A DNA stretch of 63,241 nt, counting the filler, from Kipferlia bialata (taxonomy: Eukaryota), in NCBI GenBank assembly GCA_003568945.1. It is 7 parts of 7 records of this genome, joined end to end, with 100 filler letters (N's around TTAATTAATTAA, not from the genome) between each part and the next. Parts side by side here need not be neighbours in the genome. Positions count along the whole stretch, not along the records: positions 21,500 to 32,141 come from BDIP01001387.1; 6 more parts are not named here. One strand, given 5' to 3'. Numbering within the stretch: the stretch's first letter is position 1; every line of letters begins with the position of its first letter. The position numbers and the translations under genes were made by a program. Of this stretch, positions 10,438-47,170 are shown piece by piece. Below the pieces are notes generated by a model. The model made no database searches. It saw only the letters and a program-made list of their open reading frames with translations, and was not told the DNA's origin.

Positions 10438-10503
10438 CCTCATAGGCCATGGTCAGACAGGGATGGCCGGGGGCGCCTGTGATGGTATCTTGCCAGTGGT
10501 CTG
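1..10503 (-). CDS. ABCA-family ABC transporter, multi-exon, partial at both ends (extracellular domain, TM segments, start of NBD1)
   Basis: Hand-spliced minus-strand GT-AG exons: LIQCSNVYKTFNLRKGDK (~1437-1535) | VLALQGADLTLDPGVVHALCGINGAG (~831-910) | KSTLIKVLCGEVTP (~257-327), giving Walker A GINGAGKST, then ...GSSVRVMG (1-93). Upstream TM exons IPPWHHPDINLSLGVLISLYGLQ | ASSYCAFAIILSALCHTLSRAVSWAVGIGILS and the ECD exon QTAIESSIARVIGNVRIDAEFQ resemble the ABCA layout. Interrupted by an N gap at 5897-6813. Confidence 0.8.
587..1210 (-). repeat. Exon-fragment array around the ABCA Walker-A exon (3 upstream 5' fragments, full exon, 2 downstream 3' fragments)
   Basis: Plus-strand 'tcagcaccctggagggcaaggacctgtggtaag' at ~886, ~991 and ~1108, decayed at ~1190; 'acctg(c/t)cccattgat(a/g)cc..(t/c)agtgcatgtac' at ~587, ~699 and ~831. 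Confidence 0.9.
4670..5350 (-). repeat. Exon-fragment array of the ABCA TM exon IPPWHHPDINLSLGVLISLYGLQ
   Basis: Full exon ~4980-5050. 3' fragments with a GT donor at ~4672, ~4771 and ~4870; 5' fragments 'gggtgatgccaagga' at ~5150, ~5266 and ~5333. Confidence 0.85.
5897..6813. other. Internal scaffold gap (917 N)
   Basis: Run of N without the TTAATTAATTAA linker. Confidence 0.99.
7275..7810 (-). repeat. Exon-fragment array of the ABCA exon TAIESSIARVIGNVRIDAEFQ
   Basis: Full exon ~7514-7578; 5' fragments ~7660 and ~7780; 3' fragments with donor 'acctggaactc(a/t)gcgtctatcctga' at ~7275 and ~7366. Confidence 0.85.
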
Positions 10504-11089: not shown

Positions 11090-14000
11090 TCACCATGCCT
11101 CTAAGACCATGAGGCCCCTATCGGACAGGTGCCTGTACCTCTCCTCTGCCTCTCCCTCTGATAGACCACCCTCGGAGACAAGGGCACCCTTGATGATGGC
11201 AGTGATGTCCTGGGGGGTGCGGCCTGGTCGCGTAAGAAAGGAGTAAGAAGAAGAACATCATATACATGTACTACGCGGTAAGACATACCTGAAGGGCCAC
11301 AGTACCCGAAGAACCCGTCCTCCTCCCCAAGTCCCTTCCAGAGGTTGGCAGCGTCCTCCTTCATACGATGTGTCACATATATCTTCTGAGGCTGGTCCCT
11401 GGAAAAGGCTGGAGTCAGAGAACATGATGAGTAGTACAGTAAAACACACATTGCAACCACATTGTACCCACCTGTGACGTAGCGCAGCAGACCCTGCTTC
11501 TCCCAGGCCTCAAACTCATCTATGCACAGGGCGTCCTCAGCCCTCTTCCTACGCGGTTAGAGACCGGTGAGAGCTGACCACACACGCAACAAATAGAGTA
11601 TTGAGTGTAAATTACCCTACCTCGATCCAAAGTACATGGTGCATGCCCCCTGCTGGACCCCTTCTTGATGGAGTGCCTGTCTGTGCTGCATGAAGGCCCT
11701 GAGGTCAGGGGCTCAGTATACTATATATGCGATATGTAGTATATACATAGTCTATATAGTAGTTAGTGTGTCTGCCTACCTGAACGGTGCCACCCCGCAC
11801 CCCAGCCCCACCAGGGCCATGGGTGTCATGGGGTCTGGGGGGGGCTGGAGGGGGGAGGGGGTGATCTGGACAGCCAGCATCGGGTTGTCCTCAACCTGGA
11901 TGTGGGAATATGGTTGTAAGTATAGGACCACAATGGTATGTTCATGAACACAGCCTCATGCTTTCCCATAACGATATATATACATGTGCCTATATATGTG
12001 CTAACCTTGAGGTCCGCGAGGTACCCTGTGCACAGTCCCTGCTTCACCTTGCCAGAGGGGGTCTCCCACCCTAGGGTACGCACCACCAGCTGGACCTAGG
12101 GGTTAGGCAGAGACACACTGTAATCATGTAGATACACACATAATATGATATATACACTGACCTCTCTTGGGTGCAGCAGGGGCGAGGAGGCAATGGAGTA
12201 TAGCCTGGCCCTGGTGGTAAGGTAGTTATGGAAAAATACGACACACAAGATGCCCAAGTAGATGTGGAGGATGGGACATCAGTACCTGTTTGCAGGTACC
12301 AGCTCTATCAAGTGCTCCAGGGGCACAGAGACAGATGGGAACATGCGGCACAGCTCAAAACACTGCACGGACTCCTCGATGATCTCAGTGTGGAACCTAG
12401 AGATAAGACGGGTTACCTAACGCGATGGTCACAGAAACAATGTATGGGGCGTATGGTACCCACCTCTCTGCCCCCTCCTTGGATGCCATGTGCATGAGGG
12501 TATCCTTCTCAGTGGCATCTGAGGCAAAGGGGATAAGACCCTTGAGGAAGGACTGGGGGTTAGTGGCATGTCACAGAGTGTACACACAATACAGGAACAA
12601 ACTATACCTTTGTGACAGGTGCAGCGATGTCCAGGTAGAGACCCAGTACATCGCGTAGTGTGTGTGGCTCTGAGAGTCCCTCTGGCACTGCAGTTGTGGA
12701 TGTTGCCTGCACAGTGATGTATGAGTCGAGGTCGAGGTCCAGTCTCTTGGCCAGACACTGGGGTGAGGGGGTCTAGAGGAACTAGTAATATCACATATAT
12801 ACATGTATATATACGTGAAGAGTGTAGAGTGATATGGGTATGTGTACCTGGACAGCTGTATCTGGCATCCTAGGAAGGATACGTAGGTGGTACCCTGTCT
12901 GACAGTTAGGGATGCTCCATTATGTAGTATGGCAATACTATGTATATGCAATGCATAATGCATATCCCTCATACCTCATACTCGAGTGACGTCTGCCCTA
13001 GGTCCATGTGGAACATGTATGCAGGTCTCTCTGTGGCTGTGGCTGGGGTAATGACCTGGGAGTGAGTGAGTTGTTACAACTGTTGTACACATATATAGTA
13101 TGAGTATCACTATTCATACATATGCATACCTCTGAGTGTGTGAGCTGTACATACTCATAGCCAGGCGGGGGAGCATCCACAGAAGGAGCCTCACAGGGGG
13201 TACAGGAGAACACAGCATCTGGGGTATCATCGCCTCCCTTGTCCTGGGGTGAGAGGCATATAGTATAGGTGTTAGACTATGTGTTTATATGTGTATATAT
13301 GTATATACCTGGTGAGGGGTCTACAGTGCACCACCACTCTCTCTCTCTTCCTATACTGGTATATGTATGTGACTATACCTTGGCGCCCAGTGCCTGCCAG
13401 AGGCCCTCCAGCCACAGGGCCAGTGCAGCCTCTATCCCTTCCTCATGGTCCTCATCACCCATGCCCAGGGGGAGGAGGGGGGTGGCGCCTAGGTCCCTGG
13501 GGGTAAGCCATATAGATATCCACTAATGAGAAGATGAGAGGGAGTGAGAGAAGGAGCGTTGCCTTGGTCCCTGGGAGACACTCATATCGATAAGCTATTA
13601 TATATAGTATTTGTGTGTACCTCAGTCTCTCGTCCACCTGCACTGCACTCTCACAGAACATGGAGAAGGAGGAGTCACCGAGGCCAAACACGCCTAGGTA
13701 TCAGTGTCAGTAGCATCAGTATCATTATACATATGATATGTAACTTATCAGGGACCTATATATCAGTCTATAGCAGTCACCGAGGCCAAACACACCTGGG
13801 TGTCAGTATAACAAGAATCAGAGCAGTATATACATAGATACTGATATACTTGTGTAACAGTGTCAGAATATAACTGTGTACATATTGGTCACCCAACCCA
13901 AACACACCTGGGTGTCAGTGTCAGGATCAGTATACATAACAGTGTAAATACTCATACACCTGTATACCAGTGTCAGTATATAGCAGTGTATATACTGGTA

Positions 14001-14147
14001 CACCTACGTACCTATGTGGCTGTTGGCAAATAGGGTCGAGGGTCTGTCACCATCCTGGGGAGTGAGAGAGTGAATAGAGTAAGAGAGTCTACCTCCAACC
14101 ATTCCCAGAAGTCCTCTGCGTCCTCTGTATTCATATATGTATACTTG

Positions 14148-14187
<40 letters not shown>

Positions 14188-15154
14188 AATATCATATGAT
14201 ACCCACCTCCAGCCACTCCCAGAAGTCCTCTGCGTCCTCTGGGTGCTCTCCGTCTCCATATGTGGATGTGACATAGACCAGGTGGGAGGAGAGAGGGAGG
14301 GTGTCCACATCCACATCAGCCACAGAGGTGACAGAGACGGAGATGGGGATGTCCTGGGGGGTGAGAGATATAATGGAGGGTTGAGAGTACATAGTAATCA
14401 AGGATACATATCAGAGTCTGATATGTTATCGGACAGAGGGAGAAATGGGAGTGTCCTGAGCGGTGAGACGGAGAGGGATATGTATATACTGGCACTGAGA
14501 CTATGTATAGTAGGATACATGAGTGACGCTATATGTAAAACATCCTGTACCTTACTCTTTGCCTCTGACTCTATCCTCTTGGCAACCTCCTTGTAACAAA
14601 CAATGTATATATCTATATAGATGATAGTGTATATATGCTATTCAGTACCTTACTCTTTGCCTCGGACTCTATCCTCTTGGCCACCTCCTTGGAGTTACCG
14701 GTCACAGTGGCGTAGACCACGGTCAGGAGGAGAGAAGAAGACACAGTCTGGGGTGGGGGGGGAAGGATGAGAGAGGGAGGGGGGGGGGGGTAAGGTAGAC
14801 ACAGTCTGGGGTGAACATGAGAGAGAAGCATGCATATAGACAGGGTGTGTGAAAGTCCAGTCACCATATAAGATGAGGGGGGGGGGGATGAAGTGAGAGA
14901 GCTCAGAGAGAGGCAGATCATGCGAGGAAGAGATAGAAGGTAGTGAGTCACTACCAGTGACAAGTTATAAAGTAGAGAGACGCTTGTAAAGGATAAGGAT
15001 GGGATAACGCATCATACACATACAAGTGTAAGGGACACTGTCACTCTGTGTAAGGGTCACACGTGACAGGAATATAGTACCAGTAGTAACACTGCTCTAT
15101 ATAAAAATCGGTGTGGATCTGACACCGATTTGGATACACCATGCCACTTACCAT
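11090..15154 (-). CDS. Diflavin (FMN/FAD/NADPH) oxidoreductase, CPR / CysJ / PNO C-terminal-domain-like, multi-exon, apparently complete
   Basis: Flavodoxin motifs VVYATVTGNSKEVAKRI (14650-14747), VYVTSTYGDGEHPEDAEDFWEWLE (14205-14280) and VFGLGDSSFSMFCESAVQVDERL (13620-13693). FAD motif RLYSIASSP (~12175-12210), then GLCTGYL and LVGLGCGVAPFR. NADPH domain AFSRDQPQKIYVTHRMKED..YCGPSG. Ends RGLMVLEAW* (TGA at 11090-11092). Probable start is a 3-nt exon ATG|gtaagt at 15152-15154. Confidence 0.88.
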
Positions 15155-15418: not shown

Positions 15419-16702
15419 TCACTGCAGTGTGACGTAGTTGTCTGGAATGAGCCCCTCCTTCCCCTCTGCGTCTCTGGCCATGTACCACCCGCCCTCCTCG
15501 AATACCTCAATGACAGAGACTGTCTGGCCCTCTACTATCCCAAGCTCATCCTCGCCCTCTGCCTCCCTAGAGTACAGCACAGAGACAGAGAAGGGGACAG
15601 GGGGTAGGGGGGAGTCAGTAGTAGGGACAGGGGCTGTGTTGTGTGTATCATCAGCCCCCTCGAGGGCTATGAATGTACCTGGGACGTAGCATGGCTCTGC
15701 CCCCTCCTGCAGTATGACTAGTGACCACCCCTCTGGGTCATGGGTGACGATGGAGAGGGGCTGACCATGGGTCATGGACACTGCACCATCCTCAGAGGCA
15801 TAGTCAAACACAGCCACACCTGGCACAGTGGGGAGGGGGGCATCCTCCTCTGCACCCTCAATCTCTGCAACATCCCTCTCTCTCTCTCCGTCTGCCTCAG
15901 GCATAGCCTCCACACACAAGGCAGGTCTGGCAGGACCCATGGTGTCAGGTGGCATGTCCAGCCTGTTGGGTCCACTCTCTGCCACTGTGACAGGTACCTG
16001 TGGGGGTGACAGGGTGGGGGGGCCATCAGACAGCGAGGAGGCACGCTGGATCTGTCGCCTGACATGCCTGGGTGAGCAATGGGGGTAAATAGATGTATGT
16101 AGTGTCCAAGGGTTAGAAGTACACGATGAATTCAGATGATGTGTACATACATATGCGTATATATATATATATATATATACCTTGCCATGTCCCTGTACAT
16201 GGGTGGGAAGTACACTATGGATTCAGAGATAGGAAATACACTATTTATGAATAAACCCGATAATACAATCTAGTAGTGTTGTATATATACCTAGCCATGT
16301 CCCTGTCCATGGTGGGAATATCACTCTGTTTCAGATAGAATACACAATAGTCATTACATACACATTATGCTATCATATATCATATATATATTGATGTATT
16401 TCTACCTCGCCATGTCCCTGTCCATGGGTGGGAAGTGCATCATCATCCACTCCTCACTACCCTCAGCCATGCCAGAGGCATTGGAGGCAGAGGTACTGAC
16501 TGTTAAGGGGGGAGATATGCATAGAGAGCGAGGAAGAGAGAGAGAGATGAGTGTGCAGATACATAGTGGGAATGATAATGACCGACACTGAGAGTAGACA
16601 AATGGAAACAGACATAAACATATATACATATATACATACCTGACCATCTCAGAGTCTGCTATGACCTCATCCACTGGAGATATACTAATACACTTATGTA
16701 TA

Positions 16703-16751
<49 letters not shown>

Positions 16752-19700
16752 ATGAATCCCCACCTGACCATCTCGTAGTCTGCTATGACCTCATCCACTG
16801 GGGACAGGCCATCGATGAAGGCCTGGGTCTGGATGGCAGAGGCATACCTAGGGTGAGAGAGACGTGTAAACATGTACTACATCTGCTCACACTAATCCCA
16901 TGTTCCTCCAGCATGACCTAGTGAACAGTATTTACCTACAATACCTACATGCCACACATGTATATGTGAATACCACTCACCTAGATCTGATGTCCTCCTC
17001 CAGACACTTGACGTATGAGGCCACCCTGCTCTGCATGCCTAGGCATCAGGGAGAGAGAGGGGGGAGGGACAGAGAGAGAGGGGGGGAGAGAGACGAATGA
17101 CACAAGCAACTTCGATATCTGACATCTGTTTACCTCTCAAGTGTGCCAACTCTGCCTCCTCCACCTCAGCTGCCAGCTCCCTCCCCTCCCCCTCTGCCAC
17201 TGCACACTTGGTCAGGTAGGCACGGCGCTCAGAGAGGTAGGCGTCCCTGATAGTAAGTATTCTACACTCCACCTAAAAGAAGAGGTTGGTGCAACATGGT
17301 GTTGGAATTAATGATATAAAGGTAGGTAGGTACGGCGCTCAGAGAGGTAGGCGTCCCTGTCAGTGAGAACTGCACATTGTACTCGAGTAATGACGTAGAC
17401 TTGCTACAGTGGGATATCTTAGTGGTATACACATACCTTGCCTTTGTGTGCACTATACTCGAATTAATACGTAATCTTGCTAAGGTGTTGATACTTAGTG
17501 GTATATATATACCTAGCCTTAGTGTAGACTGCAGTCAGCTTCTCCAGAGTGCGTGTGTGTCTGGAGTGGTCGGCACTGGCAGGGGCACCTGGGCCTGGGG
17601 GGTCAGAAGAGATACACACACGAAAGATATACAGGTATCAATCACTGATGAACAAATGAGAAATTGGAATTAGAAGCAAACTAGATCAGACACTGCAGCT
17701 ATCGGCGATAGATCTATAATATCTATAACACACCTAGCTCTGCGATGGTGTCCCCACATGCCACCATCTCAGCCTCGGCAGACTGGGCCTGGGATATGAG
17801 AGTCATACTGCACATTATGATAATAATACACTACAAGCAATCCTTTACACAATGACATGAATACAATTATACCACTGAGTGTAACTAGACAGTTGACGCA
17901 GATATTGATATAGTGCATTGGGTGATACCTTGCCCAGCAGCATTGCCAGCCTCTGTGACCTCTGGGCATGCTTCCTCACAAGTCGGTCGGCCTGGGTGTA
18001 AGGACATAAAACTCGTATCTAACTTATGGAAAGGGTATCAGCTGATACAATTTCCAAGTCTAACAATTATATGTTGAGGTCGGGAGTGCTTTGTACCTTC
18101 TTGGACAGACTGGTACATGCAATAATTATACAATATTATATTGCATAGTCTACATATATATATATATACACAGACGGGGAGTTCTACCTTCTTGGACAGA
18201 CTGGTGCATGCGGCAGTGGCAGAGTCAGCGTCCTAGGGTGAGACATATCAGAAAGTACACATGCAAAGTATATGAGAGAGTAATTCACCAACCTTCTCCC
18301 ACTCTGCTGCCAGTGTGTGCATGCTCCTCCCCTGGTCTGCTGCCACCCTGCCCCTGCCCTCCACCTCAGAGGCGATGCTGTGCCACGTCTTCAGACATAT
18401 TCCCTAGGGTTAAGGTTATCTGTGTATCCATACATATATATATATATGGTATTTGTACTTATCAGAGGCGATGCTGTGTCACGTCTTGAGGCAGATGCCC
18501 TGGGGTCACGGATATATATCTGTATGTATATGCAGTGTATTCACACATCACGTATATATATGCACATTCACATTGGAGGCTATGGTGTGCCACGTCTTGA
18601 GGCAGATGCCCTGGGGTTAAGGGTATCTGTGTATCCATACATATATATATGGTATTTGTACTTATCAGACGCTATGCTGTGCCATGTCTTGAGGCAGATG
18701 CCCTGGGAGTGAGTAAGCATCATTTGGTATACTCATATTGTATATTTGTATATACTATATATGTGTATGCACCAGAGGCTATGCTGTGCCACGTCTTGAG
18801 GCAGATGCCCTAGCAGTTAAGGCTAGGTAACTATACAGAGAACATAGTAAATATCGAAGGGGCTGAAATAGTATGTACCACACCAGCCAGCCAAGAGACC
18901 AATCTACACACACCGCATACCTTCAGTGCTGGCATAGGGGGGCACTCCTTCCTCCCGTTGGCAAAGGCAGTGCCTGGGAGGTCAGGGACTAGCAACTACT
19001 CACATATATTTGACGCAATCAGCATTGAAACAATTTACGTTATAGCAGGTGAATCATGTAAATAAGGTTGCTGAATGTCAGGCAACTTGCACTTGCTGCG
19101 TAAATAGATATACCGTCTTTACCTGCCCCTGCTGCCGCCGTTGCATGTGCCTGTATGGTGTGTGCCATGGATGTCATCTCAGACACACGCTGCTTGTAGA
19201 GGGTACGGACAGAGTCAACACTCCCAATGCCTAGGGTGAGAGAATACATGTAGGTATATATGAATGCAGGTGAATAGGTATTAAGATACACATTTAGTAG
19301 ATGAAATATCCCTGTACCTGGGTCTGCGAGCTGTCTGATACAACATTCTATAACTAGATAAGATATATTTACTAGACACATATTTATCTATCATATATAC
19401 ACTATATATACATATCCCTGTACCTGTGTCTGCCAAGTGTCTGATGCCGTGTTTGGCCATGAGGTCAGGGTACATGGTCACAGTGCCATCCGCCTGGGGG
19501 AAGATACTAATTAGTAAATAGAATAATCCACTTAGAATTCCTCTTTGCATGTAATATATATCCTTTGTGTACCTGTATGATACTGGGAAGACAGGACAGA
19601 AAAGACACGTTCTGCCTGACTAGACACGATGGGTCACACGATCCCCTGTCACCCCTACCCCCCTGGGTGGCAGATGCCATGTCACTAGCCACGGAGTGGG

Positions 19701-20534
19701 TGGAGAGCATGTGACAAGCCAGCGAGTAAGGGTCACCCTCGCACATGACCCTCTCTGCGGCCTCTGCGGCTGCCCTGCCTCTCTTGTCAAGGGAGAGGAG
19801 CTCATCCCGCATCTCAGACAGGGACTGGGGGTGGAAGGGATACTACATACTATATCAAGTGTTGAAGAGAGTTTCCTGAAATTACACTCCTATGAAACTC
19901 AACAAATATGAGTGTATATTCATACCTGCAACTGATGCTGTGGTACTTCCAACATAAGTATACAAATGCATGAGGTCGTCTCTTCTTCTCTCTATATATG
20001 AGTGTATGTATACCTGCAACTGGTTGCTACATGCCACCGAGGCTGTGGTCCGGATGGTCTCCTCCCTCTGGTCCACAATCCTAGGGGGTGAGGATATCGT
20101 GTAGGAAATAGTACTAACCGTGCGACAGGTAGTAAATGAAGAGAGACAGAGACTATCCCACCCTACCTCCTAATCTCTGTGAACCTCTCCTCTATGCTCT
20201 CCATGGTTGATGCGTGGTGTCTCCTGCATGCATCTGTCAGCCTGTCTGTCTCCCCTATCCTCTCCCTCACTAAGGTGCACAGCTGGGTCTGGTCCAGGGT
20301 GGACTGACGATAAGAAACTAGATACTATTTATAGGCGCATTGTATGAACATATATTACGATTTAGTATAGGTGCACAGCTGGGTCTGGTCAAGGGTGGAC
20401 TGCGGGTCAATAATAGTACTAACAGAGGAAATATAGACACATATAAAGTATTAATAATATATACATGTGCAACGCTGGGTCTGGTCCAGGGTGGACTGGA
20501 AGTTAGGATGACTTCATATATATGTGTAGTATAT

Positions 20535-20573
<39 letters not shown>

Positions 20574-21360
20574 TGTATAAATGTGCACAGCTGGGTCTGG
20601 TCGAGGGTGGACTGGGAGTCATGGGTCAAGTATACATACACTACTAGTATAACATGGTATAATAATACAATATAAATGTAATATAAATATAAGCACTGAG
20701 ACACTGTTACACAGGTTGATTGCCATGCTGCTCACCTGTCTGACTATCCGTGATATCCTGTGCTTGGCGTCTGCCAGGGTCTGGATCTCATGGTCCATCC
20801 TGGTCAGCATGTCTGGAGTGAGGATAGTTACATATACATGTTACAAGTTATACAACAACAGCCACGGATTCAATACGATCTGGGTGAGAAGTAATAGTGC
20901 CCCGACAGTATCCTATGATACACTCATACTTGTCATGCATCCCACCTATGCTGCATATGACCCTGTTGTCTGTCCAGTCGAAGAACTCAAGGGCCTTGCC
21001 ATGCTCAGGACACAGGGGGTGGGGCTGGTATAAGTACATATAATAATAGGATACATGATTGATACAGCATATAGAGTGAATGTGTATATACAGAACTTAA
21101 GTGCCTTGCTCGGGACATAGGGGGGGCAGCAGTCAGCATATATACGACCTGAGAACTGCAGCATTGAAGATATAACACAGATATATCCACTCAAACACTC
21201 ACATCTCTCTACATATACGTGACATGATGTAATTGCATAGATAATCATCGCATATAGATACCTCTATAGCAGTGCTGATATCCATACCTTCACACATATA
21301 TATAACATATTATATAACACTGATATACCTCCCCATCTGAGAAGTGTGGCAGGGGTGGGC
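15419..21360 (-). CDS. F-BAR (FCH) and tandem SH3 protein, probably with an N-terminal B-box-like zinc finger and coiled coil; 5' partial
   Basis: The last exon holds two SH3 domains (GVAVFDYAS..EGWSLV..CYVPGTFI; VSVLYSREAEGEDELGIVEGQ..GGWYMAR..KEGLIPDNYVTL*). Exons GIGSVDSVRTLYKQRVSEMTSMAHTI (~19122-19232) and GICLKTWHSIASEVEGRGRVAADQGRSM (~18290-18405) match FCH/F-BAR helices. CPEHGKALEFFDWTDNRVICS (~20945-21025) is B-box-like. Linkage of the B-box exon to the same gene is inferred. Confidence 0.72.
18290..18815 (-). repeat. Array of 5' exon fragments (GICLKTWHSIAS), each with its own branch point and acceptor
   Basis: Plus-strand 'tgtgccacgtcttgaggcagatgccct' variants at ~18475, ~18586, ~18678 and ~18785, plus the full exon at ~18290-18405. 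Confidence 0.9.
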
Positions 21361-21640: not shown

Positions 21641-23130
21641 GGGCAGGAAGAGGCGCCATGACAGTGAGGAGGGGGCACCCTCATACCTCAAACAGACACT
21701 CGAGCTGTTCTTGAGAGGTACATACATATTTGTATTTATGGTGTATTATGTATTATTATTACATTCATTCTCACTTCAGGTCCCATGTGGCGTCTCCGTA
21801 TGTGCTCTCTGCTGGAGGTTGTCATGTGGATAGGTACGATGTATTCATATATCCATTAATGTATGTGATGTGTATAGGTATGTAGTCCCTAACGCCAGGC
21901 TCTGCCATCTCCCTTCAGCTAGTGGCAGATGGGGCAAATGTGTATAGGTTTACATATATGTGTATATATACCAGTATACATACATGCTATATACTAACCC
22001 CAGGCTCTGCCATCTCTCTGCAGCTAGTGGCAGATGGTGCCTATGAGAGGATAGTCACATTTGGGGAGGAGGACTTTGCAAGGTATGGATATATGCATTA
22101 ATATGTAAGTGCCTCTCTCTCAGTCTGTCAGTGTATTTATTATTCATAACAAGGTATGTATCTCTCTCTCTAGTCGATCTTCTCTCTAGTCTAACTCCCT
22201 GGGGCTGTGGCCTCCTCCCCTGCCGTACTATTCAGCTTTGCTCTATATCTATGATTTTCACCTCTGTGTCTCTCTCACGTGTCTCTCTCTAGTCTAAATC
22301 CCTTGAGTGGTTGCCTCCATGATCCTCCTTCCCAATAATAACTCTCTCTCCCCTCTAACTATATCTCCCTCATTTTCATTTATTCACTCTTCAGAGTGGT
22401 TGCCTCCATGATCCTCCTACCCCTGTATCATTATGTCTCTACATAATCTCATGTAGTCTCGCTCTCTATTTCTCTAGTCTAACCCTCCAGAGTCGTTGCC
22501 TCCATGATCCTGCTCCCCCTGTGCCTGGGTGGTGCAGCACTCACAAGGAGGATAAAGGCATTCTACAAGGTATGAATATATATGGCATCAGTTACTTGTA
22601 TATTGTATGTATATTGTTTGTATTACGGAGGATAAAGGCATTCTACAAGGTGGGAGAGTAACAATGTTAGTATATCATGTATATATATGTGTGTGTGTGT
22701 ACCTATACTCACAAGGAGGATAAAGGCATTCTACATGGTATGATATGAATATATACTACGATATGAATATGTAAGTACTTTGGATCACATAAATGTATGC
22801 ATGTACATGTATGAGTTTTTTGTGCTAATGCCCATGACACCCAGTCCAACAGGGCCTATGATGATGAAACAACAAGAGTATTGTACATATATTGTATATG
22901 TATATATATTAATGCATATATGTTAATCTCCAGGACTCTCTGTCCAACAGGGCCTATGTGGCACTGTCCTGCCAGTTGATAGACAGGTATGGGAGTGTAT
23001 ATACAGAGTATATACAGTAGACCAATATCATATAGTATAGACAGGTCCGATAGCATTTGTGGCACTGTCCTGCCAGTTGATACACAGGGGAGTATGCTTG
23101 GGCCCACTCCCACTTGACACCCTCTCTGTT

Positions 23131-23166
<36 letters not shown>

Positions 23167-24380
23167 TTCTGTGTAGACATACGATTATCCCATTTGTGTA
23201 TTGTATATTAGGTGTTATATTTACTTACCCTCAGGGTCCAGTCCCACATGACCCCCTCCCTACTGGGTGGTGACACACCCTCAGTCCTGAGACTGCTCTT
23301 CAACGATGTGCAAGTGGTCAAGGTACTCCTGAACTCTTTATGACTGTTTATATGTATATATATTGGAGAAATATGTTTCTGACTGTATGTGCAAGTGGTC
23401 AAGGTAATGGATTAACCTGATTATTATCCACTTGTCTTGGTATTCTATCTCTTATATTTATTTATATATATCCCTCTTCAACGATGTGCAAGTGGTCAAG
23501 GAAATGGATTAACCTGATTATTATCCACTTGTCTTGGTTTTCTTTATCCCTATATGTATTTTTATATATCCCTCTTCAACGATGTGCACGTGGTCAAGGT
23601 ATAGTTGTCCTTATGAATGTGTATACAGTTATATGGATTCATATGGTCAGTGACATGTTTCTCTTATTCATTTGTTCCCTTATGAAAGGAACACTTCCTT
23701 GCCCGTGCCCAAGCCATGTCCGACTGGATAGTACTCATCTTTGGAGCATTCTACATGGCCAGGGTCACTGGCCTGCTCAGCACAAGTCTCTGCATAGGTA
23801 AATACAATACTGATTGTACATATGATTGCTATACACACATATATATATTAATGTACTACTAGTATTTGGGGCATTCTACATGGCCAGGGTCACTGGGTTG
23901 TTGAGTACTAGTATATGCATAGGTATTCACTATTGATTCTCATTATATATGATACTGATGATACTTATACAATCTTCACGTACCTTCCTTTCTAACCCCA
24001 TGTCTGAGTGCACTCCTCCTATCTGTCAACCAGTTGCTGCACCGGTACGGGAAGAGACAGGTATATACTCATTCCCTGGAGTTCTTTACTATTCATTTTC
24101 CTGCTTTAGGTCTATATGTAATCACTTTATCAGCCCTCAGGGCTACTTCTCCATCAAATGTCTTCTATACTACACTATATTGATATGAGTAATATCTAAC
24201 CCCAGCGCTTCATGAAGGGCAAGGCAGAGAAGGCCAGGCAGAGCCTGTTCTCAGAGTCGGTGGAGTCACTCCAGAGTATTAGGTGTGTACAATGAATGGG
24301 TCTCGTATATATTAGTCTATATATATGTATACTTCTCCATACTCATGATACAGATTCTGGAGGATTTACTACCTGTATGA

Positions 24381-24413
<33 letters not shown>

Positions 24414-27400
24414 GGTGGGTGTGGGTGTGGGTGTGATAGTAATAGAAGCTATATGTGAAGTACAACCTGTATTTGTATGTTTAGTTGTAAATATATATAT
24501 ATATACTACTCCCACCCCAGGATGCAGAGTCTGGAGGATGACGTCCTGTCCCAGCTAGGACTGCTGTGGAGGAAGGAGGTACCACTAATGCAACATCTAT
24601 GTGTACTGGAGACCAGGCTCAGTATCAGTATCAGTGTATATCCATATCTGATATTCATCTATGTATTCCTTACCCCAGGGCAAGATTGTTGCCAAGACCA
24701 GACTGCGGGGTGGCATCTTTTCATATATATATACAAATATATATTAATATGCATTATTGTATATATATGACACCAGGGCAAGATTGTTGCCAAGACCAGA
24801 CTGCGGGGTGGCTTTGCCAGAGGGGGTGTCTCTGCCCTCGAGGCCGTCCTGATGCTGGTGTCGGTGTCTGTGTTTGTGTCCGTGTATGGAGACTTCCAGG
24901 CCTGGATCACACCAGGTACACTGGGTGTATTATTGATGGAAGCATAATTTACTCATTATTGAGATAGAGTGGCATATTTTAAAGCTCTGTACAGAATATG
25001 TGTGTGTCCGTGTATGGGGACTTCAAGGCCTGGATCACGCCAGGTACACTAAGTGCAGTATTGATAAGAGTACAGTATAGATATCATATAGAGATATGCT
25101 GGTAGTATATTAGTCCTGTCTCTGTGTCTATTGGGACTTCCAGGCCTGGATCACACCAGGTACCAACACGTCTACATGTATATTCATTAGTATACATTGT
25201 AGCATAACACCATAGTGTCTTGTATTACTCTAGGCTGAGACTGGAATATACATATGTGTATATATTCCTGACACCAGGCGCTGCCGGTGCCCTCTATCTG
25301 ATTGTGTCTGCTGTGAGGAGACCCCTGGCAGCACTGTCGCCAAGGAGACATCTCGCCAAGGTAACATCCCTGCCGATCTCTTTTATCCTGGTTCTCTCTG
25401 GCTCTGCATACTCATATAGTCATATCAGTGACTCACACCAAGGCATACACACAGTCCCTCCAGAGGCTGCAGCTCTTCTTCTCCGTGACTGACTCCCTAC
25501 CCCCTGCCGCTCTATCTGGCCATGCCACTAACCCACCCTCTAGACCCTTAAGGGAGAGAGAGGGGAGGAGAGGGAGAGAGAGAGGCAGGAAGGGTCCCAT
25601 CAGAGTGACTGCTGAGGGTGAAGTTGGGGCTGCCAGCATGGGTGGGGAGATGGGGGCCATAGGGGTATTCCCAGGTTGGTGTTTGTGTATTCCACAGCAC
25701 TAAAAGAACAGTAAAGTGTCGCTCTCTCCCTCTCTCTATAAGTATTTATTGATAATATTCATTGACTCCCAGGTGTTGGTTCCGTGGCTGACAGTATGAG
25801 ACCACAGAGAGAGGAGGATAGTGAGGAGGAGAGAGAGGACAGTGCAATCAGCGAGACAAGCGAGAGCTCAGAGGATATCGGGAGGAGTGGTGCTAAAAAG
25901 GGGACTCTTGCGTTGCGGAGAGGCAGAGAGAGGGAGGCAGAGAGAGAGATTGTGCTCGATATCAGACAGAGCAGGGCAGGGGTGGACCCCACAAACAGGT
26001 ACATTGTTTATAGTCAGCTCTTCTATGTCTCACTCTATGATGTACCATCTTACCATTCTCACCCGAGGAACCCCATTGCGTGTGGGTTTGACCTGACTGT
26101 GCGTAAGGGCGACAGGGTGGGCATAGTGGTGGGGGAGAACACCAAGCTCACACACAGAGAGGTATGGTTGATTGCCACTCATATTGTGCCCTCTCTAGTG
26201 ATATTTCAATTCCAATATATTCGTTATCCTCATACCATGTCATCATGTCTCTGACTCGCTCTGTCTCTCTCTATCTCTCTCTCTCTCTCTCTCCTTGTCC
26301 CTAATATCCTAGGTCATCATATCTCTGACTAGCGAGTACTCCCTCACTCTCTCTCTCTCTCTACCCCCCCCCCCTCCTCTTATTTCTTATGCCAGGTCAT
26401 CATGTCTCTGACAGGCGAATACTCCCTCACTGCTGGACCATCAGGGGGAGGCACGGACTTGGGGGATCCTAGGTATAAATAGGTCTATACATAATGCACT
26501 ATATGTGTTACTACTGTTATCGTTCTTGTAGTTCCTTTTTGTTATGCTCACCTTAGGACCCGAGAGCTGGCCATGAGACAGATATTCAATATTCTATACA
26601 AATCATGTATCTCTCTCTCTCTGTCTACACCCCTATTCTCTCTCTTACCCCAGGACCAGGGAGCTTGCCATGGAGAGAGAGAGGAGCAGAGAGAGAGAGG
26701 GTGGGTGGGAGAGCCAGTGGGCCAGGGGAATGCTCGGATCACCAACAGCATCTGGATCTAGACCCTCTTCACAGGTATATTTACATACTTCTTTATCGCG
26801 TAGGTTTTTGCTACTGTATTCGTCTCACCCCTCAGTACCACCGCGTTACTTCTGAGTCCATGCGTGACTCCTCGGCATCTCACTATGTCGGGAAGAGCAG
26901 TGTGGTGGTGAACCCGGCCAACCCATACATCCTCCCAGGTGATATATATACTATGTATATATAAATGAAGTGGTCCGATTAGTGCCTTGGCACTGATTGC
27001 TAAAAGCCTACAGATTCATCTATATACTAGTTATGTCACTCATCTTCAGGGACTGTCCTTGAGAATGTGTGCATGGGCCCCGCCAGTCTATAGTCATATG
27101 TATATATATATATCTTCATTTTATGCGTATGAATACAAACCCTATATACACATAACCAGTCTTACCAATAGGCACTGTGCTTGAGAACGTGTGCATGGGC
27201 CCTGCCAGTCTGGAGGGCATGGACATTGTGACACAGATCGGGAGGAAGCTGCACCCACACCTACACGTCAGAGACAGGAGGGACATTGCAGGTATATATG
27301 TTCTAGATATCTACATTCTTTGCTAATCATTTCACTTTGTATTATCTGACCCTCAGACTCAGATACACCATTACATGTACATATATCCGTTTATTTCACG

Positions 27401-30400
27401 GTTTGTAACATATGCATTCCGCATTAGTGTTCATTACTATCACTTGTCTTACCCCCAGACCCCATCGACCGCACCACCATCCAGCTGGCCCATACTCTCC
27501 TATATATATATATATATATATCGTATATACATATATACATATATATGTATGTATAATAATGTATGTATATATAGCGTGTCTCATACTCAGACCCCATCGA
27601 TCGCACCACCATCCAGCTGGCCCGTACCCTCTGCCACCGGCCTGACCTAGTGATAGTCAAGGCAGGGGACGGGTTCTCAAGGGAGATCCTTAAAAGGCTC
27701 CAGGTATAGCTAGAAGTATATATGTCCCAAGCTAGTATATAGTCAAGGCAGGGGACGGGTTCAGCAGGGAGATACTAAAGAGATTGCAGGTACATATAAC
27801 AATTGCCTATATAAATACTTACTGTATATATTCATGCAGTACAGAAGTATTAGGTATACCTAGTGATAGTCAAGGCAGGGACGGGTTCAGTAGGGAGTTC
27901 AGGCTCATAACTGTTGTTACTTACTCAATACTAATTAGTTGTTCTGTCTGTTCATCTATTAGTGGAAATATTGGATTGCTATTCTAATGACAGGCCGGCC
28001 ATTCCATTGGCCTAGTGATTGTTAACAATAGTTCTAGTTTTCATATTTTCTTGTTCTTATATCAAGGCCGGCCATTCCATTGGACTTGTGATTGTGGGCA
28101 CCAAGGCTGAGATTGAGGCTGAGCTCAAGGAGACTGGGGGTACTGATGCGTCAGACTCTTCTTACACTGGGGGTACTGGGGGAGAGGGAGAGAGAGAGTG
28201 GCGCTTCCTGGACTTCATGGAGTCCAGGGTCAGGCTGCCCCTGTCGCTCTCACTCGCTAGGTTAGTGTTTTACATCTTTACACTATATATAGGCTAGGTG
28301 GGTACTGTGGTACCATTAATTCTTCTTATCTAACATTTCATTCAGTTGCAAGGTGTATGTCCATGTGTTTTCCTACTTGTGTATCATTCATATCTTCCTC
28401 ATCCCAGGAAGTCCTCCATGTCTGTGCTCAGACTGTAATACTCTTTCCCANNNNNNNNNNNNNNNNNNNNNNNNNNNNNNNNNNNNNNNNNNNNNNNNNN
28501 NNNNNNNNNNNNNNNNNNNNNNNNNNNNNNNNNNNNNNNNNNNNNNNNNTATATTATGTGTCTATCCTCATCCCAGGAAGTCCTCCATGTCTGTGCTCAG
28601 ACTGGCACCCGTGTCCATGGAGCCAGAGTACAAGGTATACAATATACTTCTTTATATAGTATTGGTATTTATATAGTATATATAATGGATATTCATGTGT
28701 ATCCTTATATATATATTCGTATCGGTGTCCATGGAGCCAGAGTACAAGGTATAGACATATATATTATTATATATATATATATGTATAGATAAATATATAT
28801 AAATACATAAATGCAATGGTCTGGTGCCCGTGTCCATGGAGCCAGAGTACAAGGTACACAGTATGTCATATATTCATACTCTTATATATACTTCTATATA
28901 TGTATGTATATTCATGTGTACTCTACCAATTCTCATCCAGAGTACAAGGTAACATGTGCCTTTACTTCAACATCGTTTGACTATATTGTATACATGGTGT
29001 TTAGTTGTTCTTGATGGACATGGATATGCACTCACCCCAGAGTGTCCTGTCCCTCCACGTCACTGAGGACCCCCCTCTCTACTCCAGACCAACATCCATG
29101 CACTGCCTGACAGGCAGTGTCGAAGGGGGAGATGGTAAGTTATATATATATTAATATTTATACATTTACTGGTAGGAAATATGTATGTCACTAGCTGTGA
29201 GTTTGTGTTCCTATTCTCCAGCTGACTCAGGCCATGAGAGCATCGCCTCCATCCTAGCTAAGCATGAGGAAGCAGAGAGGGAGAGGGAGAGAGAGGTCCA
29301 GAGGGGGGTCATAGCAAGGTATGATTACACTGTCACCACACCTCTCTCTATGTATTGCGTGGTCTCTCCATCTCCTTTTGTCTGTATATATATACACTGT
29401 ATATATATACACTGTGTCTAACCCAGGCGCCGCAAGGGTCTCTATGGTGAGCTGTCTCTGGGTCATGATGATGACCACACAGTGCCAATGAGAGGGTGGG
29501 TGGATATACACATGACTACAAGGCCTAGCACAGTATCCATCACCCTTTGTGAATATCTTGTATGTGACCATATATATCCCCTCACCCCCAGGTACCGTGG
29601 TCAGACCAGGGAGGAGAGGCGGAGACAGAAGGAGGAGGCCAGGCGTCTCAAGCAGGTATGTATTCTGTAACACACACAAGCCGTATTGATTCTTAGCAAA
29701 ATTGGAACATATTATTGTCATATGCAATACAGTCTTGCCCTTTTGGTCGTTCAACTGTACCTCTCTATGTCTAACCCCAGCTGGAGTGGGAGAGGAAGGA
29801 CCATGCCAAGAAGGTTGCTGCCGGCCCCTCCTTCTCCTCTGCATTCAACCTCTCCAGCACATTAGAGATAGTGCTCATAGTGGGCATAGTGCTCAGTCTC
29901 GCACTGACTACTGTGGAGGTAAGATATATTAAGACTTGTATACACTTCTTTTGCTCTCTGGAGATAGTGCTCATTGTGGGCATAGTGCTCAGTCTTGCAC
30001 TCACTACTGTGGAGGTATGACTGGTTATGGCTATTATATAATAATTATATAATAGTAATTATTATATTATATATACCTCTCCAGCACCCTGGAGATAGTG
30101 CTCATTGTGGGTATAGTGCTCAGTCTGGCTCTAACAACTGTGGAGGTAAGATATATTAAGAGATGTATACACTTCTTTAGCACCCTAGAGATAGTGCTCA
30201 TTGTTGGTATTGTCTTGAGCCTGGCTCTAACAACTGTGGAGGTATATATGATACTCTATTCCCATATATATAGCACCTTAGAGATAGTGCTCATTGTCGG
30301 CATTGTGCTCAGTCTTGCACTCACTACTGTGGAGGTATGAGTGTTCTTTGTGATATACATATATTATATCCACATTTGCATTGACACCCAGGAAACAGCT

Positions 30401-32088
30401 CTCACAGGTTTTCATCCAATGTGATATAAGCCAGTATTGTCTATTAACTAGTACATTGACACCCAGGCCCTGAAGCAGCTGTCGGAGTGGTCACTGCCAC
30501 CAGGGGAGAGTGAGAGGTATCGGAATTATTGTATAGATGTAGATATCAATTCTATGATCAATGGTTCGTTCAGTGCACATATTACAGATCCTGCCACCAC
30601 GGGAGAGTGAGAGGTGTGGCATTTGCCGCATTTCACACAATATTGTAGATACCAGTACTAGTGAGCTCATTCTTGTTCTTCAGATTATATATGTAAGTAT
30701 ATATATCCCTAACCCCAGCATCACTGTCTACATGGCATCCTTCCAGGGCTATATGATTGTGGTAGGACTGCTGTTCCTGGCGAGAGACGTCACAATCAGC
30801 ATGACAGGTGTATTCATTATTATATATATATATACATGTGTGAATATATACATTCATTATATATGTATATATATATATTCATTATTCAGTATTATGTATA
30901 GTAGTGTACTATATTGTGTATTACAGTGTATATATGTGTTAACCCCAGGTGTGAGCTATGCCCGCAGTGTCTACAAGCGCCTTGTCCGTTCCACCTTCTT
31001 CGCCAGTCTCGACTCATACTGCACAGGTATTTACATTCATATACACACATGTATATATCCCAGTAGCAGTAGCAGTATATTCATGTGACTATACGTATAT
31101 AGTACTGACACGCTCCACCTTCTTTGCCAGTCTCGACTCATACTGGACAGGTATGAGAGAACGTATATGTACTACTATCAGTATCACCGTGGCAATATAA
31201 TTGGAGTAAATGTACCAAATATGTACTACATATAACACCAGGTGGGGGTGACCCCGATGCCTCCAAGCCAGAGAGGACAGTCAGGGGGATACCAATCAGG
31301 TATGAATGGTATTTGTATATATAGGCGTGATATTTGTATATATAGGCGTATGGAATGGTCCTATCAGGGATAGTGCACTGAATGTGTTCTGTCACAAATA
31401 TTCCTGGCTGACCCTTCAGGATCCTCCGCTTTGTCTCTGAGGACATTGCAGAGAACCTCGGCAGGGGACCCGGGCCAGGTACACATCTCTCTCTCTCTCT
31501 CTCTGTCTGTCTATGCATATCATCCCTCTCTATATTCATATAGTTCTCACCCCCAGCCTCCTCCGTCATCACAGCATGTCCTACTTAATGCCTATCACTG
31601 CAATATTTGGCCGTGCCTTTTATACAAATGTAATTATGTGTATGACTTACCCTTAGCCTACTCCGTCATCATTGCTGTCTCTAGGGCTGCTATCACGGCC
31701 TATCTCATCATCGAGTCCCTGCCATTCTGGAGGACGGCATCCCTGCTCATGAACCTCAGAAACAGGTACAGTTACCATACATATACAGTTCGGATGAACC
31801 TCAGAAACATGTATACTATATACTATATGTACTATTAGTAAGTATATGGTACTATTTGAGAGTACTATTGGAGGACTACATCCCTCCTCATGAACCTCAG
31901 AAACAGGTACATTTACTATATCTATTTACAGTATTCTTCCATATTTGGCAATAGTTCCTCTGTTGTTGCTGAGACTGTTTGTCCTTGTTTGTGTATGTGA
32001 CCTCACCTCCAGCCTTCTGTTTGCGGGTCCCATCACCATCCTCATGGCCATACCCCTGTACATTGCATCCAACACAGCACACAAGAAG
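21641..32088 (+). CDS. Divergent ABCC/MRP-type transporter (TMD1, degenerate NBD1, TMD2), partial at both ends
   Basis: Spliced exons: ARQSLFSESVESLQSIR | MQSLEDDVLSQLGLLWRKE | ... AYTQSLQRLQLFFS (end of ABCC TMD1). NBD-fold exons NPIACGFDLTVRKGDRVGIVVGENTK, PYILP|GTVLENVCMG and TIQLARTLCHRPDLVIVK. TMD2 exons GVSYARSVYKRLVRSTFFASLDSY and PIR|ILRFVSEDI. Confidence 0.75.
28405..28950 (+). repeat. Exon-fragment array of the exon KSSMSVLRLAPVSMEPEYK (spans an N gap at 28451-28549)
   Basis: 'gtgtccatggagccagagtacaaggt' at ~28611, ~28725 and ~28830, short remnant at ~28937; 5' fragment at ~28405. Confidence 0.85.
29581..29591 (+). promoter_or_regulatory. Representative fused branch point / 3' splice site (CTCACCCCCAG)
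   Basis: The motif YTNACC(C)CAG precedes most inferred exons (plus strand ~21631, ~24511, ~29417, ~29771, ~30709; seen as ctggggtgag/ctggggttag for minus-strand genes). Confidence 0.85.
29856..30336 (+). repeat. Five tandem copies of the exon 3' end (S)TLEIVLIVGIVLSLALTTVE plus GT donor
   Basis: Copies end at 29918, 30014, 30145, 30241 and 30334, each followed by GT. Confidence 0.95.
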
Positions 32089-37792: not shown

Positions 37793-39156
37793 GGCATCTG
37801 CAGAGTTCACACCAGTGAAAGGCTGAGAGTAAGGGCATTACGGAATACATATTCACTGAAATAACAATACACGCATATGTATATACATATATATAATATA
37901 AACATAATTATATATAGGCATCTGCTGAGTTCAGGCTGGGGGTGAGGTCACTAAGGAGAAGGAACAGAAACAGAGCTTAGTGCATGTATATGGCGAACTA
38001 TCACGACAGAAGGTTAGATCCATAAAGTCACTATAGGCCATACTATGTACATCTCTCTAACAGTAATCCCTACCTCTGCTCCCCTCGTCTGCCGCCTTCC
38101 TTAAGGAGTTCATATATATCCATTTTACATATTCAATGGTATACATATACACATAGCAATGCCAAGTACCTCTGCTCCCCTCGTCTGCCGTTGGGACGTA
38201 CTGGGGCACCCTGAGGTGAATACAGATATATGTGTGTAAGGCAAATTATTATATGTATATATACACGACTATACAATACAGAGTATAGAGTATACTATAT
38301 GTTGGGACGTACTGGGGCACCCTGGGGGTGAGTATGTGTTGATATGTATTCACACACATATATATATATGGCTATATAGTAAATACGACCACGACCAGCA
38401 TAGGCCAGTAAATGTGTATATACATACACCAATCATTTATCCTACAATACCTCAGTACTCCTGATAAGGCAGTGTCGCACCTACATACAGAGCACATGAC
38501 AGGTGGGGTATATGTATATATACATATGATAACCAATGTATATACATACATATATATGAGTATATACTATGCCTAAGTACACCAGAGAGTGCTGCCTCAC
38601 ATCCTCCATACACTGCACATGACAGGTGGGGTATAGTATATGTATCAACGTATAAATAGTATATATGAATATATGAATATATACTATGCCTAAGTACACC
38701 AGAGAGTGCTGCCTCACACCCCCCATACACTGCACATGACAGGTGGGGTATAGTATATGTATCAACGTATATATATACATATAGTATATATACTATACCT
38801 AAGGACTCCTGATAAGGCAGCTTCACACCCCCCATACACAGCACATGACAGGTGGGGAATGGTATACATACTACGTGTATATAGTATATGTATGGTGGGT
38901 TTTACCTGAGGACTCCCGATAGAGCAGCTTCACATCCTCCATACACTGCACATGACAGGTGGGGTATTTGTATATATACATATGACAACCATTGTATATA
39001 TACATACATTAGTAGTATATATGAATATATACTATACCTAAGTACCCCAGACAGTGCAGCTTCACACCCCCCATACACTGCACATGACAGGTGGGGTGGG
39101 TGGGGGGTACCCTGGGGGGCAGACAGAAAGGCCTCTCTAGTGTGAATAAAGGGTGT

Positions 39157-46754: not shown

Positions 46755-47128
46755 TTACACGAGCATCTTGGGGAGGCCTCTGAGCTTGATCATGGCAAAC
46801 CTGGGGTTAGCGTACTACTATAAAGACACAGTGTTGAATATCATGATCACACTAGAGGTGTCAACATCTCCCACACTGACAACTACATACTAATATGTGG
46901 AATACTGTACTGTACCTAATGGACTCGTAACCAGGTGACCTCTTGAAGGAGAACTGGGTGCACAGCTCATTGACACGCCTGACAGTAAGACAGATACAAT
47001 ATTGAATAGCTCTGGAAGACCAACGTCAGCTGCAACATATGTATGTGCAATGTTCCCACCTGTTGTCCCTGTTGGACAGTGCCGTGGCATAGTCATTCAG
47101 GAAGTCGAGGGCATCCTGGGGTGAGGAG

Positions 47129-47170
<42 letters not shown>

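What the first reader, a model, noticed from the sequence alone, without database searches (positions are those of the whole stretch)
29856..30336. Five copies of a TM-helix exon end: 12 of 19 codons vary, all synonymously
LEIVLIVGIVLSLALTTVE is encoded five times. Variants include Leu TTA/CTG/CTA, CTC/TTG, Ser AGT/AGC, Val GTG/GTT/GTC and Thr ACT/ACA, with no amino-acid change, and each copy keeps a GT donor. Copies 3-5 start at an internal AG|CACC, which would give a 61-nt frameshifting exon, so ordinary inclusion or mutually exclusive splicing does not explain the conservation. The spacers after copies 1 and 3 are homologous (gtaagatatattaaga..tgtatacacttcttt), showing a higher-order duplication. 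Copies 2 and 5 share their 3' end.
Basis: seen in the sequence. Interest (0 to 1): 0.82.

Follow-up and report, generated by a model that had tools for sequence, protein, structure and literature searches.

The report
Introns hoarding silent-variant exon ends
In the protist Kipferlia bialata, one exon end is followed by four spare copies that the RNA splices out, yet over 19 codons they differ only at silent positions, as do three-quarters of the changes in about a hundred similar copies nearby, likely because each was captured by recombination from a highly diverged allele.

Summary
In detail: 12 of 19 codons vary and none changes an amino acid. The window is Kipferlia bialata. Copy 1 ends a real exon (29781-29918) of an ABC-transporter-like gene; an RNA contig splices out copies 2-5 in one 548-nt intron.

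The pattern recurs across the window: 103 partial exon-end or exon-start copies lie in 56 of 151 introns, with 148 synonymous against 46 non-synonymous codon changes (dN/dS about 0.11). Non-synonymous divergence stays near 2% whatever the synonymous divergence, and all 36 states shared between copies are synonymous. The copies therefore diverged mostly while coding and decayed only briefly as intron.

Their intron flanks are mostly unrelated, arrays are mosaic, and silent differences are sparser near the breakpoint. The best model (55%) is capture of exon ends from diverged alleles by unequal or aborted recombination, tolerated through exon definition. No allele data could be tested.

The closest known kind is the amphioxus "mirage". 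The scan found single cases before, in sea urchins and a fungus. Four literature searches found no account in Kipferlia. Verdict: new variant of a known kind, interest 0.72.

The parts
29781..29918 (+). Expressed 138-nt exon (phase 0-0) of ABC-transporter-like gene KIPB_005766; its last 57 nt (29862-29918) are copy 1, a hydrophobic predicted membrane segment
   Evidence: Annotated protein P0001 mapped to the window; RNA contig matches with 0 other letters; peak 19-residue hydropathy 2.46
29919..30466 (+). 548-nt GT..AG intron holding copies 2-5
   Evidence: Joint in the RNA contig (table 5) and in the annotation
29919..29951 (+). Spacer 1: real donor plus truncated intron start, homologous to spacer 3
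   Evidence: 28 of 30 bases match spacer 3
29952..30014 (+). Copy 2 (5 synonymous nucleotide differences from copy 1 in 19 codons; two edge codons read C-S), followed by GT
30075..30145 (+). Copy 3 (8 synonymous differences from copy 1 in 19 codons although its intron flank is nearly identical to the real one), followed by GT
30146..30178 (+). Spacer 3, homologous to spacer 1
30179..30241 (+). Copy 4 (13 synonymous differences from copy 1, 12 from copy 2), followed by GT
30272..30334 (+). Copy 5 (5 synonymous differences from copy 1 in 19 codons), followed by GT; shares a 36-nt exact end with copy 2
30378..30402 (+). Decayed copy of the next exon's acceptor and start in the same intron; seen by eye, not among the 103 counted
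   Evidence: sequence printed
30467..30516 (+). Next exon, joined in frame to copy 1
27739..27789 (+). Same kind of copy in the same gene: 6 changed codons, all synonymous, including Ser TCA versus AGC
38451..39097 (-). Second large array: an exon end plus five intronic copies; four keep the same 19-residue peptide with different codons and the farthest has decayed
   Evidence: frame from my ab initio model
18366..18809 (-). Exon-start array in KIPB_005765: four intronic copies share four synonymous differences from the exon; one has a 94%-identical flank but pS 0.65

Best explanation
Copies 2-5 are unexpressed partial duplicates of the exon end plus splice donor, lying in one intron, and they likely came from other, highly diverged working alleles of the same gene through unequal or aborted homologous recombination. 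Shown: copy 1 is the exon, the copies are spliced out, and differences are mostly synonymous across the window. Inferred steps: (1) a short tandem duplication or a break near the splice site creates a repeat of the exon edge. (2) The exon-derived part is the only stretch still homologous between alleles, so it recombines with the exon of a diverged homologue. The copy takes on that allele's codons and the start of that allele's intron, and stays more like its own allele near the breakpoint. (3) A partial copy has only one splice site, so a spliceosome that pairs sites across the exon would ignore it and the event is nearly neutral. (4) Copies last only about 0.02 substitutions per site before deletion, overwriting or collapse into the exon, too short to gather many amino-acid changes. 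The silent differences are then old allelic differences and the intron is a short-lived archive of other alleles.
For: RNA contig joins 29918 to 30467 with no other letters. 103 copies carry 148 synonymous and 46 non-synonymous changed codons, against 27% synonymous expected if neutral and 42% if only the exon is constrained (P 6e-22). The result holds with annotation frames alone (53:18) and without the finding (131:46). pN is flat across four pS bins (0.021, 0.023, 0.014, 0.022; rho -0.03). States shared by two or more copies are 36 synonymous and 0 non-synonymous; changes private to one intronic copy are 32:16. Copy-versus-copy differences are 62:20, and two copies carry stop codons. Only 13 of 91 flanks exceed the 95th percentile of unrelated flanks, yet 92 of 103 copies keep their splice dinucleotide and score like real sites (6.5 vs 6.1). 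Two copies have 90-94% identical flanks with pS 0.40 and 0.65, which point mutation in place cannot give. Four-gamete conflicts occur in 7 of 15 site pairs here and 6 of 10 in the second array. pS is 0.21 in the breakpoint half and 0.33 in the splice-site half (permutation P 4e-4; 0.009 with one copy per family; simulated control 0.31 vs 0.30). No copy spans more than 71% of its exon. Context from passages: metamonads lack Ku-based end joining and fornicates lack Rad51A (PMC8516963); k-mers suggest diploidy (PMC5874029); in yeast, under 150 bp of homology at the second end makes capture inefficient (PMC7407515), and the exons here have medians of 59-110 nt.
Against: No allele or second strain was seen. 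Each annotated protein stands on one contig with one member sequence, and two metagenome scans found no relative. The diversity needed is extreme: mean pS 0.24 and up to 13 differences at about 16 silent sites. A diploid holds only two alleles, so a large recombining pool must be assumed, and none is documented for this species in what I read. One unlisted RNA record was laid within 30253-30315, over copy 5 (table 2), and I could not identify it. The breakpoint gradient also fits homology-guided use in place. Direct RNA evidence covers only two copy-bearing introns, and 63 of the 103 copies use frames from my own gene models.
Confidence: 0.55

Rival explanations
1. The copies work in place as silent cassettes. 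Frequent homology-guided DNA switching in the cells, or polymerase template switching, joins the exon's 5' part to any copy, so selection keeps each copy protein-identical.
For: Zero amino-acid changes in the 19 codons. Splice sites are as strong as real ones. Copies that lost their splice dinucleotide have far more amino-acid changes (8:12 vs 141:34, Fisher P 2e-4). Identity is higher near the free end. An unlisted RNA record lies over part of copy 5.
Against: The contig carries pure copy 1. pN does not rise with pS. Two copies have stop codons. Twelve silent changes between copies 2 and 4, inside a block whose spacers differ at 2 of 30 bases, still need an outside donor. If collapse were frequent enough to select, the arrays would not persist long enough to diverge (inference). 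No such mechanism is known to me.
Confidence: 0.13
2. The same capture process, but the donors are paralogues or sub-genomes of past hybrids rather than alleles.
For: Divergence is at the level of separate species (pS up to about 0.8 raw; flanks unalignable).
Against: The exon query found only the gene itself among 37 candidates, and the second gene likewise among 1752; both searches are weak for absence. The pattern spans unrelated genes, and there are three or more flank types per array.
Confidence: 0.12
3. The copies are snapshots of one exon lineage whose silent sites change much faster than intron DNA, for example through error-prone RNA-templated repair limited to exons.
For: Two cases of near-identical flank with high pS; 12 sites where the exon differs from all its copies, all synonymous.
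Against: A ladder of snapshots should give few four-gamete conflicts, but 7 of 15 pairs conflict. Most flanks are unrelated even at pS 0. The breakpoint gradient is not predicted.
Confidence: 0.08
4. Assembly artefact: haplotypes or mixed strains were strung together by a short-read assembler.
For: The published draft is a short-read SPAdes assembly of a probably diploid culture, with many short scaffolds discarded (PMC5874029). One copy (28408-28435) sits beside an N gap. An amphioxus mirage was reported as mis-assembled in a draft genome (PMC3087553).
Against: The longest exact repeat in the array is 36 nt, shorter than Illumina reads. Junctions from intron into mid-exon do not exist in normal alleles, so an assembler has no path to them (inference). 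Five versions exceed two haplotypes. Assembly size matches the k-mer estimate. The RNA contig matches the scaffold exactly across seven exons.
Confidence: 0.07
5. Ordinary tandem duplicates of the exon edge that have decayed neutrally since they arose.
For: Partial tandem architecture; 35 of 103 copies have no synonymous change; 46 non-synonymous changes and 11 lost splice sites show some decay.
Against: Predicts 42% synonymous changes, observed 76% (P 6e-22). Predicts 27% synonymous among changes private to a copy, observed 32 of 48 (P 1e-8).
Confidence: 0.02

Closest known systems
Amphioxus 'mirages' (Adh3, globins BflGb6 and BflGb9, PGBD5, troponin C). Seen: passages and supplement 4 of PMC3087553, passages of PMC3902484; the original Adh3 paper (PMC117041) was not held
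   Same: [quoted passage not shown]
   Different: Mirage units are minisatellite-like, 81-100% identical, and their intron parts align throughout (by eye). Here most flanks are unrelated while the coding part is conserved at protein level. The globin paper's main text never uses 'synonymous'. Reported there at a few animal loci; here in 56 of 151 introns of a fornicate protist.
Intron gain by tandem duplication of an AG|GT site (Rogers model; PMC3265369, passages)
   Same: An intragenic tandem duplication is removed by splicing and leaves the peptide unchanged.
   Different: There the duplicated coding AGGT becomes the new intron's two ends. Here an existing splice boundary is duplicated, no new intron forms, and the copies sit inside the old intron.
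Tandem-duplicated mutually exclusive or cassette exons (recalled)
   Same: Neighbouring homologous coding pieces with low dN/dS and conserved splice sites.
   Different: The copies cover at most 71% of the exon, lack a second splice site and are absent from the contig.
Silent-cassette gene conversion, as in trypanosome VSG or chicken immunoglobulin pseudogenes (recalled)
   Same: Unexpressed partial coding copies beside or linked to an expressed copy, with mosaic sequences.
   Different: Those systems exist to change the protein; here the differences are silent and occur in unrelated genes.

Membership tests
Mirage repeats | Tandem repeat that spans an exon-intron boundary | tested here: met
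   Five units of exon end plus GT; 103 anchored copies
Mirage repeats | Occurs at both 5' and 3' exon boundaries | tested here: met
   47 exon-end and 56 exon-start copies
Mirage repeats | Duplicated splice signals do not disturb regular splicing | tested here: met
   The contig skips the copies in two copy-bearing introns; rare isoforms cannot be seen in contigs
Mirage repeats | Minisatellite-like units that are homologous over the intron part as well | tested here: not met
   13 of 91 flanks above the null 95th percentile. In the finding, pair 1/3 matches 28 of 30, pair 2/5 22 of 30 with gaps, and the other 8 pairs 9-18 of 30. It works like a mirage but is not filed as a typical member.
Mirage repeats | Length polymorphism between haplotypes and somatic instability | not testable with these tools
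   No second haplotype, strain or DNA read set was available
Mutually exclusive or cassette exons | Each copy has its own acceptor and donor and keeps the frame | tested here: not met
   3 of 92 intact copies have a good partner site, 0 in frame. The in-frame 51-nt option in copies 2-5 has acceptor scores of -1.5 to -4.6
Recursive splicing (AG|GT ratchet sites) | The copy's terminal AG acts as an acceptor | tested here: inconclusive
   Acceptor scores at the ends of copies 2-4 are -4.9, -6.7 and -6.7; lariat data are needed. It would not explain the protein conservation.
Intron gain by AGGT duplication | Intron ends coincide with a duplicated coding AG|GT | tested here: not met
   The intron runs from the old donor to the old acceptor; the copies are internal
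Introner elements | Whole introns similar to one another at unlinked sites | tested here: not met
   The 10 distant self-matches that passed my filter, of 70, were simple-repeat-rich acceptor stretches; only this window was searched
ABCC subfamily (host gene) | ABC membrane and nucleotide-binding domains in ABCC arrangement | tested here: inconclusive
   No convincing Pfam or PDB match; Atlas hits at 0.94-0.96 are ABC-transporter clusters of mixed type

The most novel reading that the evidence does not exclude
Kipferlia keeps protein-identical, codon-different spare exon ends and starts in a third of its introns as working cassettes. Homology-guided recombination swaps them into the expressed exon, bringing a new intron with them, often enough that selection preserves their reading. 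This would be a genome-wide exon-edge carousel that recodes genes and replaces introns without changing proteins.
Probability: 0.13. Interest if true: 0.93.

Novelty: new variant of a known kind. Interest (0 to 1): 0.72.

Why it matters
If the best model holds, one assembly carries a readable record of other alleles inside its introns. That would allow diversity and genetic exchange to be estimated in a free-living fornicate from a single genome, and it implies extreme silent-site diversity. It offers a testable route for rapid turnover of intron sequence in a species with 124,912 introns whose parasitic relatives have 3 to 8 (PMC5874029). The use of the outer splice sites despite equally strong inner ones points to exon definition in a protist, where intron definition is the usual expectation (PMC2397502, passages), and in a spliceosome whose snRNAs were not found (PMC6679479, passages). 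It also warns that low dN/dS in an intronic exon copy is not proof of alternative splicing, and that gene finders take such copies for exons, as mine did before masking.

Tried and rejected
No whole genome was held, so all counts come from this window. The run search listed one run, X1, and no holder on record as RNA; that is no evidence either way, though the spliced contig shows X1 contains RNA. Only 28930-30810 was laid with RNA contigs, so other introns rest on annotation or my models.

Two metagenome scans for relatives found nothing. Searches for the annotated protein of the first scaffold's gene failed (none; three hits, of which the one read, P0003, was an unrelated repeat protein). 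Pfam and PDB sequence searches did not classify the host protein.

A 51-nt in-frame cassette exon starting after the Glu codon's AG was rejected on acceptor strength and on the contig. An old intron at AG|CACC with later fusion was rejected because other copies start at arbitrary positions. Selection to diverge from the copies was rejected because it would speed change at all sites of the copies (inference).

Twelve of 115 rows were dropped before counting: 7 not anchored at a splice boundary and 5 judged chance-like or in an uncertain model. With them the count is 170:60.

Literature searches for a prior account in Kipferlia: combined the name with intron, duplication or splicing terms and gave 1, 1 and 0 papers; one search listed 15 of 29 genome-related papers. 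None of the listings or passages read describes it. General searches gave the comparisons cited. The library lacks most subscription papers, and two wanted papers (PMC117041, PMC2791625) were not held, so the original mirage work may already note silent bias. The supplements of the genome paper were not read.

Full report
Observation. The region holds five homologous 63-69-nt units. Over the last 19 codons all five translate identically; 12 codons vary at 14 sites, 12 of them third positions and 2 Leu first positions. A random change here is silent 28-31% of the time, so 13 to 15 silent changes in a row has probability 2e-7 to 5e-9. Each unit is followed by GT, with donor scores equal to real donors. 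Spacers 1 and 3 match at 28 of 30 bases, and copies 2 and 5 share a 36-nt exact end. One correction: two codons further up, copy 2 differs in amino acid.

Setting. The exon that holds copy 1 matches at 100% a 1032-residue protein named KIPB_005766 of Kipferlia bialata, which maps as 32 exons to 21642-32088. A second gene, KIPB_005765, maps as 19 exons on the minus strand. The window is a string of scaffolds of about 10.6 kb joined by N linkers. The host protein resembles ABC transporters by language-model features; Pfam and PDB sequence searches gave nothing convincing, so the ABCC label is open. From the genome paper (PMC5874029; I read parts 1-2 of 6, section 12 and passages): short-read SPAdes assembly, 51 Mb matching the k-mer estimate, probably diploid, 124,912 introns. 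The word 'duplicat' does not occur in its main text.

RNA. One run, X1, was listed; it may come from the same culture as the assembly. Laid on 28930-30810, one 3583-nt contig of depth 55 matches seven exons with no other letters and joins the end of copy 1 to 30467 across a 548-nt GT..AG intron. Copies 2-5 are therefore intronic in the main transcript. The next intron, which holds one exon-end copy, is also skipped whole. Against a clean picture: one unlisted record was laid within 30253-30315, over copy 5, with no joint listed; it could be a chance match, another gene or a second allele. Contigs also drop rare forms.

The pattern recurs across the window. I searched every intron of seven gene models for copies of the flanking exons: two annotated genes and five from my own predictor, which recovered 30 of 32 and 17 of 19 annotated exons. 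There were 115 hits in 60 of 151 introns. After dropping 12 rows (7 unanchored, 5 chance-like or uncertain), 103 copies remain in 56 introns (counted from the list): 47 exon ends and 56 exon starts, median 31 nt, never more than 71% of the exon. The spread is uneven: 18 of 31, 14 of 22, 13 of 22 and 6 of 18 introns in four genes, but 3 of 17, 1 of 9 and 1 of 32 in the other three. Distinct changed codons number 148 synonymous and 46 non-synonymous; pS is 0.236, pN 0.022, dN/dS about 0.11. Neutral decay predicts 27% synonymous, and a constrained exon beside a neutral copy predicts 42% (P 6e-22). The result holds with annotation frames only (53:18), without the finding (131:46) and with the dropped rows restored (170:60). 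In my own models the longer, outer unit was chosen as the exon by construction, so use of the outer site is directly shown only in two introns and supported by annotation in 22 more.

Two phases of history. pN does not follow pS: it is 0.021, 0.023, 0.014 and 0.022 across four pS bins (rho -0.03). All 36 states shared by two or more copies are silent, while changes private to one copy are 32 silent to 16 not; two copies carry stops. Copies that lost GT or AG (11 of 103) have 8 silent and 12 amino-acid changes. My inference is that copies decay neutrally once intronic, but only for about 0.02 substitutions per site. That could supply at most about 0.04 of the 0.236 silent divergence, so most of it arose while the sequences were coding.

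Where they were coding. They are not usable exons: 3 of 92 intact copies have a good partner splice site near the free end, none in frame. Their intron flanks are mostly unrelated to the real flank (13 of 91 above the null 95th percentile), even when the exon part has no silent change, yet the splice sites score as well as real ones. Each unit therefore looks like a working boundary from a different version of the gene. Conversely, copy 3 here and a copy at 18576-18610 have flanks 90-94% identical to the real one but pS of 0.40 and 0.65, and copies 2 and 4 differ at 12 silent positions inside a recent block duplication. Point mutation in place cannot do this; diverged coding sequence was imported. 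Arrays are mosaic (four-gamete conflicts in 7 of 15 and 6 of 10 site pairs). Silent differences are sparser in the half nearest the breakpoint (0.21 vs 0.33; permutation P 4e-4, or 0.009 with one copy per family), and a simulation with uniform changes shows no such bias. These tests treat sites as more independent than they are.

Mechanism. The simplest account is recombination between an exon-edge duplicate and the exon of a diverged allele, leaving a chimera: own allele at the breakpoint, foreign allele and foreign intron beyond. Short exons flanked by non-homologous introns should make clean repair hard (PMC7407515, passages), and metamonads lack Ku-based end joining while fornicates lack Rad51A (PMC8516963, passages). 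Partial copies would be tolerated if splice sites pair across exons; pairing across the intron would pick the inner sites and leave the copies in the mRNA, which the contig contradicts, unless the intron is removed stepwise. The weak point is the diversity required. High silent diversity is reported for some free-living protists (PMC11334263, passages without figures; the bioRxiv Paramecium tables were images), but nothing here measures it in Kipferlia. Each protein stands on one contig and no relative turned up in metagenomes. I give this model 0.55; use in place 0.13, paralogue or hybrid donors 0.12, fast exon-limited mutation 0.08, artefact 0.07, plain decay 0.02.

Comparison with what is known. 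They are tandem repeats across exon-intron boundaries at either exon end that leave splicing intact. This finding works like a mirage. It fails one defining feature, homology of the intron part across units, and the polymorphism feature could not be tested. The scale, the unrelated flanks and the quantified silent bias are what differ. The original mirage paper was not held and may mention silent bias. Searches combining Kipferlia with intron or duplication terms found no description; the Introner survey's main text does not name the species.

Verdict. The feature is real, far beyond chance, and general in this window. It is a new variant of a known kind of repeat, with an unproven but testable population-genetic explanation. 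Interest 0.72.

Noticed in passing
window 23689-23797 and 24002-24060 (+): The annotation of KIPB_005766 skips two apparent exons in its 883-nt sixth intron. They join in frame only if the intron 23798-24001 ends in CAT instead of CAG, a possible non-canonical acceptor or a base error. The first has its own codon-different copy at about 23854-23925.
   Followed up: partly
annotated genes at 15422-21285 (-) and 21642-32088 (+): 47 of 49 exons before an intron end in AG, an unusually strict exon-side donor consensus.
   Followed up: partly
window 30253-30315: An unlisted RNA record (mean depth 32.6 over the bin) was laid over part of copy 5 with no joint listed; identity unknown.
   Followed up: partly
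window 28396-28435 and 28565-28604: An identical 40-nt acceptor-plus-exon start lies on both sides of a 100-N gap; this one copy may be an assembly duplication.
   Followed up: no
window 22836, 24347 (+) and 3868 (-): Three of the 11 copies that lack the canonical splice dinucleotide have AT in place of AG, the same change as the odd acceptor at 24001.
   Followed up: no
window 46755-53273 (-) and 11090-14805 (-): Two conserved-looking genes (Sec31-like and diflavin-reductase-like, names from recalled motifs, not from a call) have short introns (medians 74-76 nt) and few copies (1 of 32 and 3 of 17 introns).
   Followed up: partly
window 258-10500 (-), 53940-54384 (-), 61077-63190 (-): Further genes by recalled motifs only: an ABCA-like transporter, the start of an SMC1-like gene, and a RING and TRAF-type zinc-finger gene (translations).
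   Followed up: no
window 10700, 21444, 32186, 42924, 53661, 60962: Scaffolds are joined by N runs around a 12-base linker with stops in all six frames; this is a packaging feature, not biology. Neighbouring pieces carry consecutive locus tags and lengths of 10644 and 10642 bases.
   Followed up: yes
window 54400-60100: A 5.7-kb stretch with little simple-repeat DNA and no short duplications, unlike the rest of the window; its genes were not modelled.
   Followed up: no
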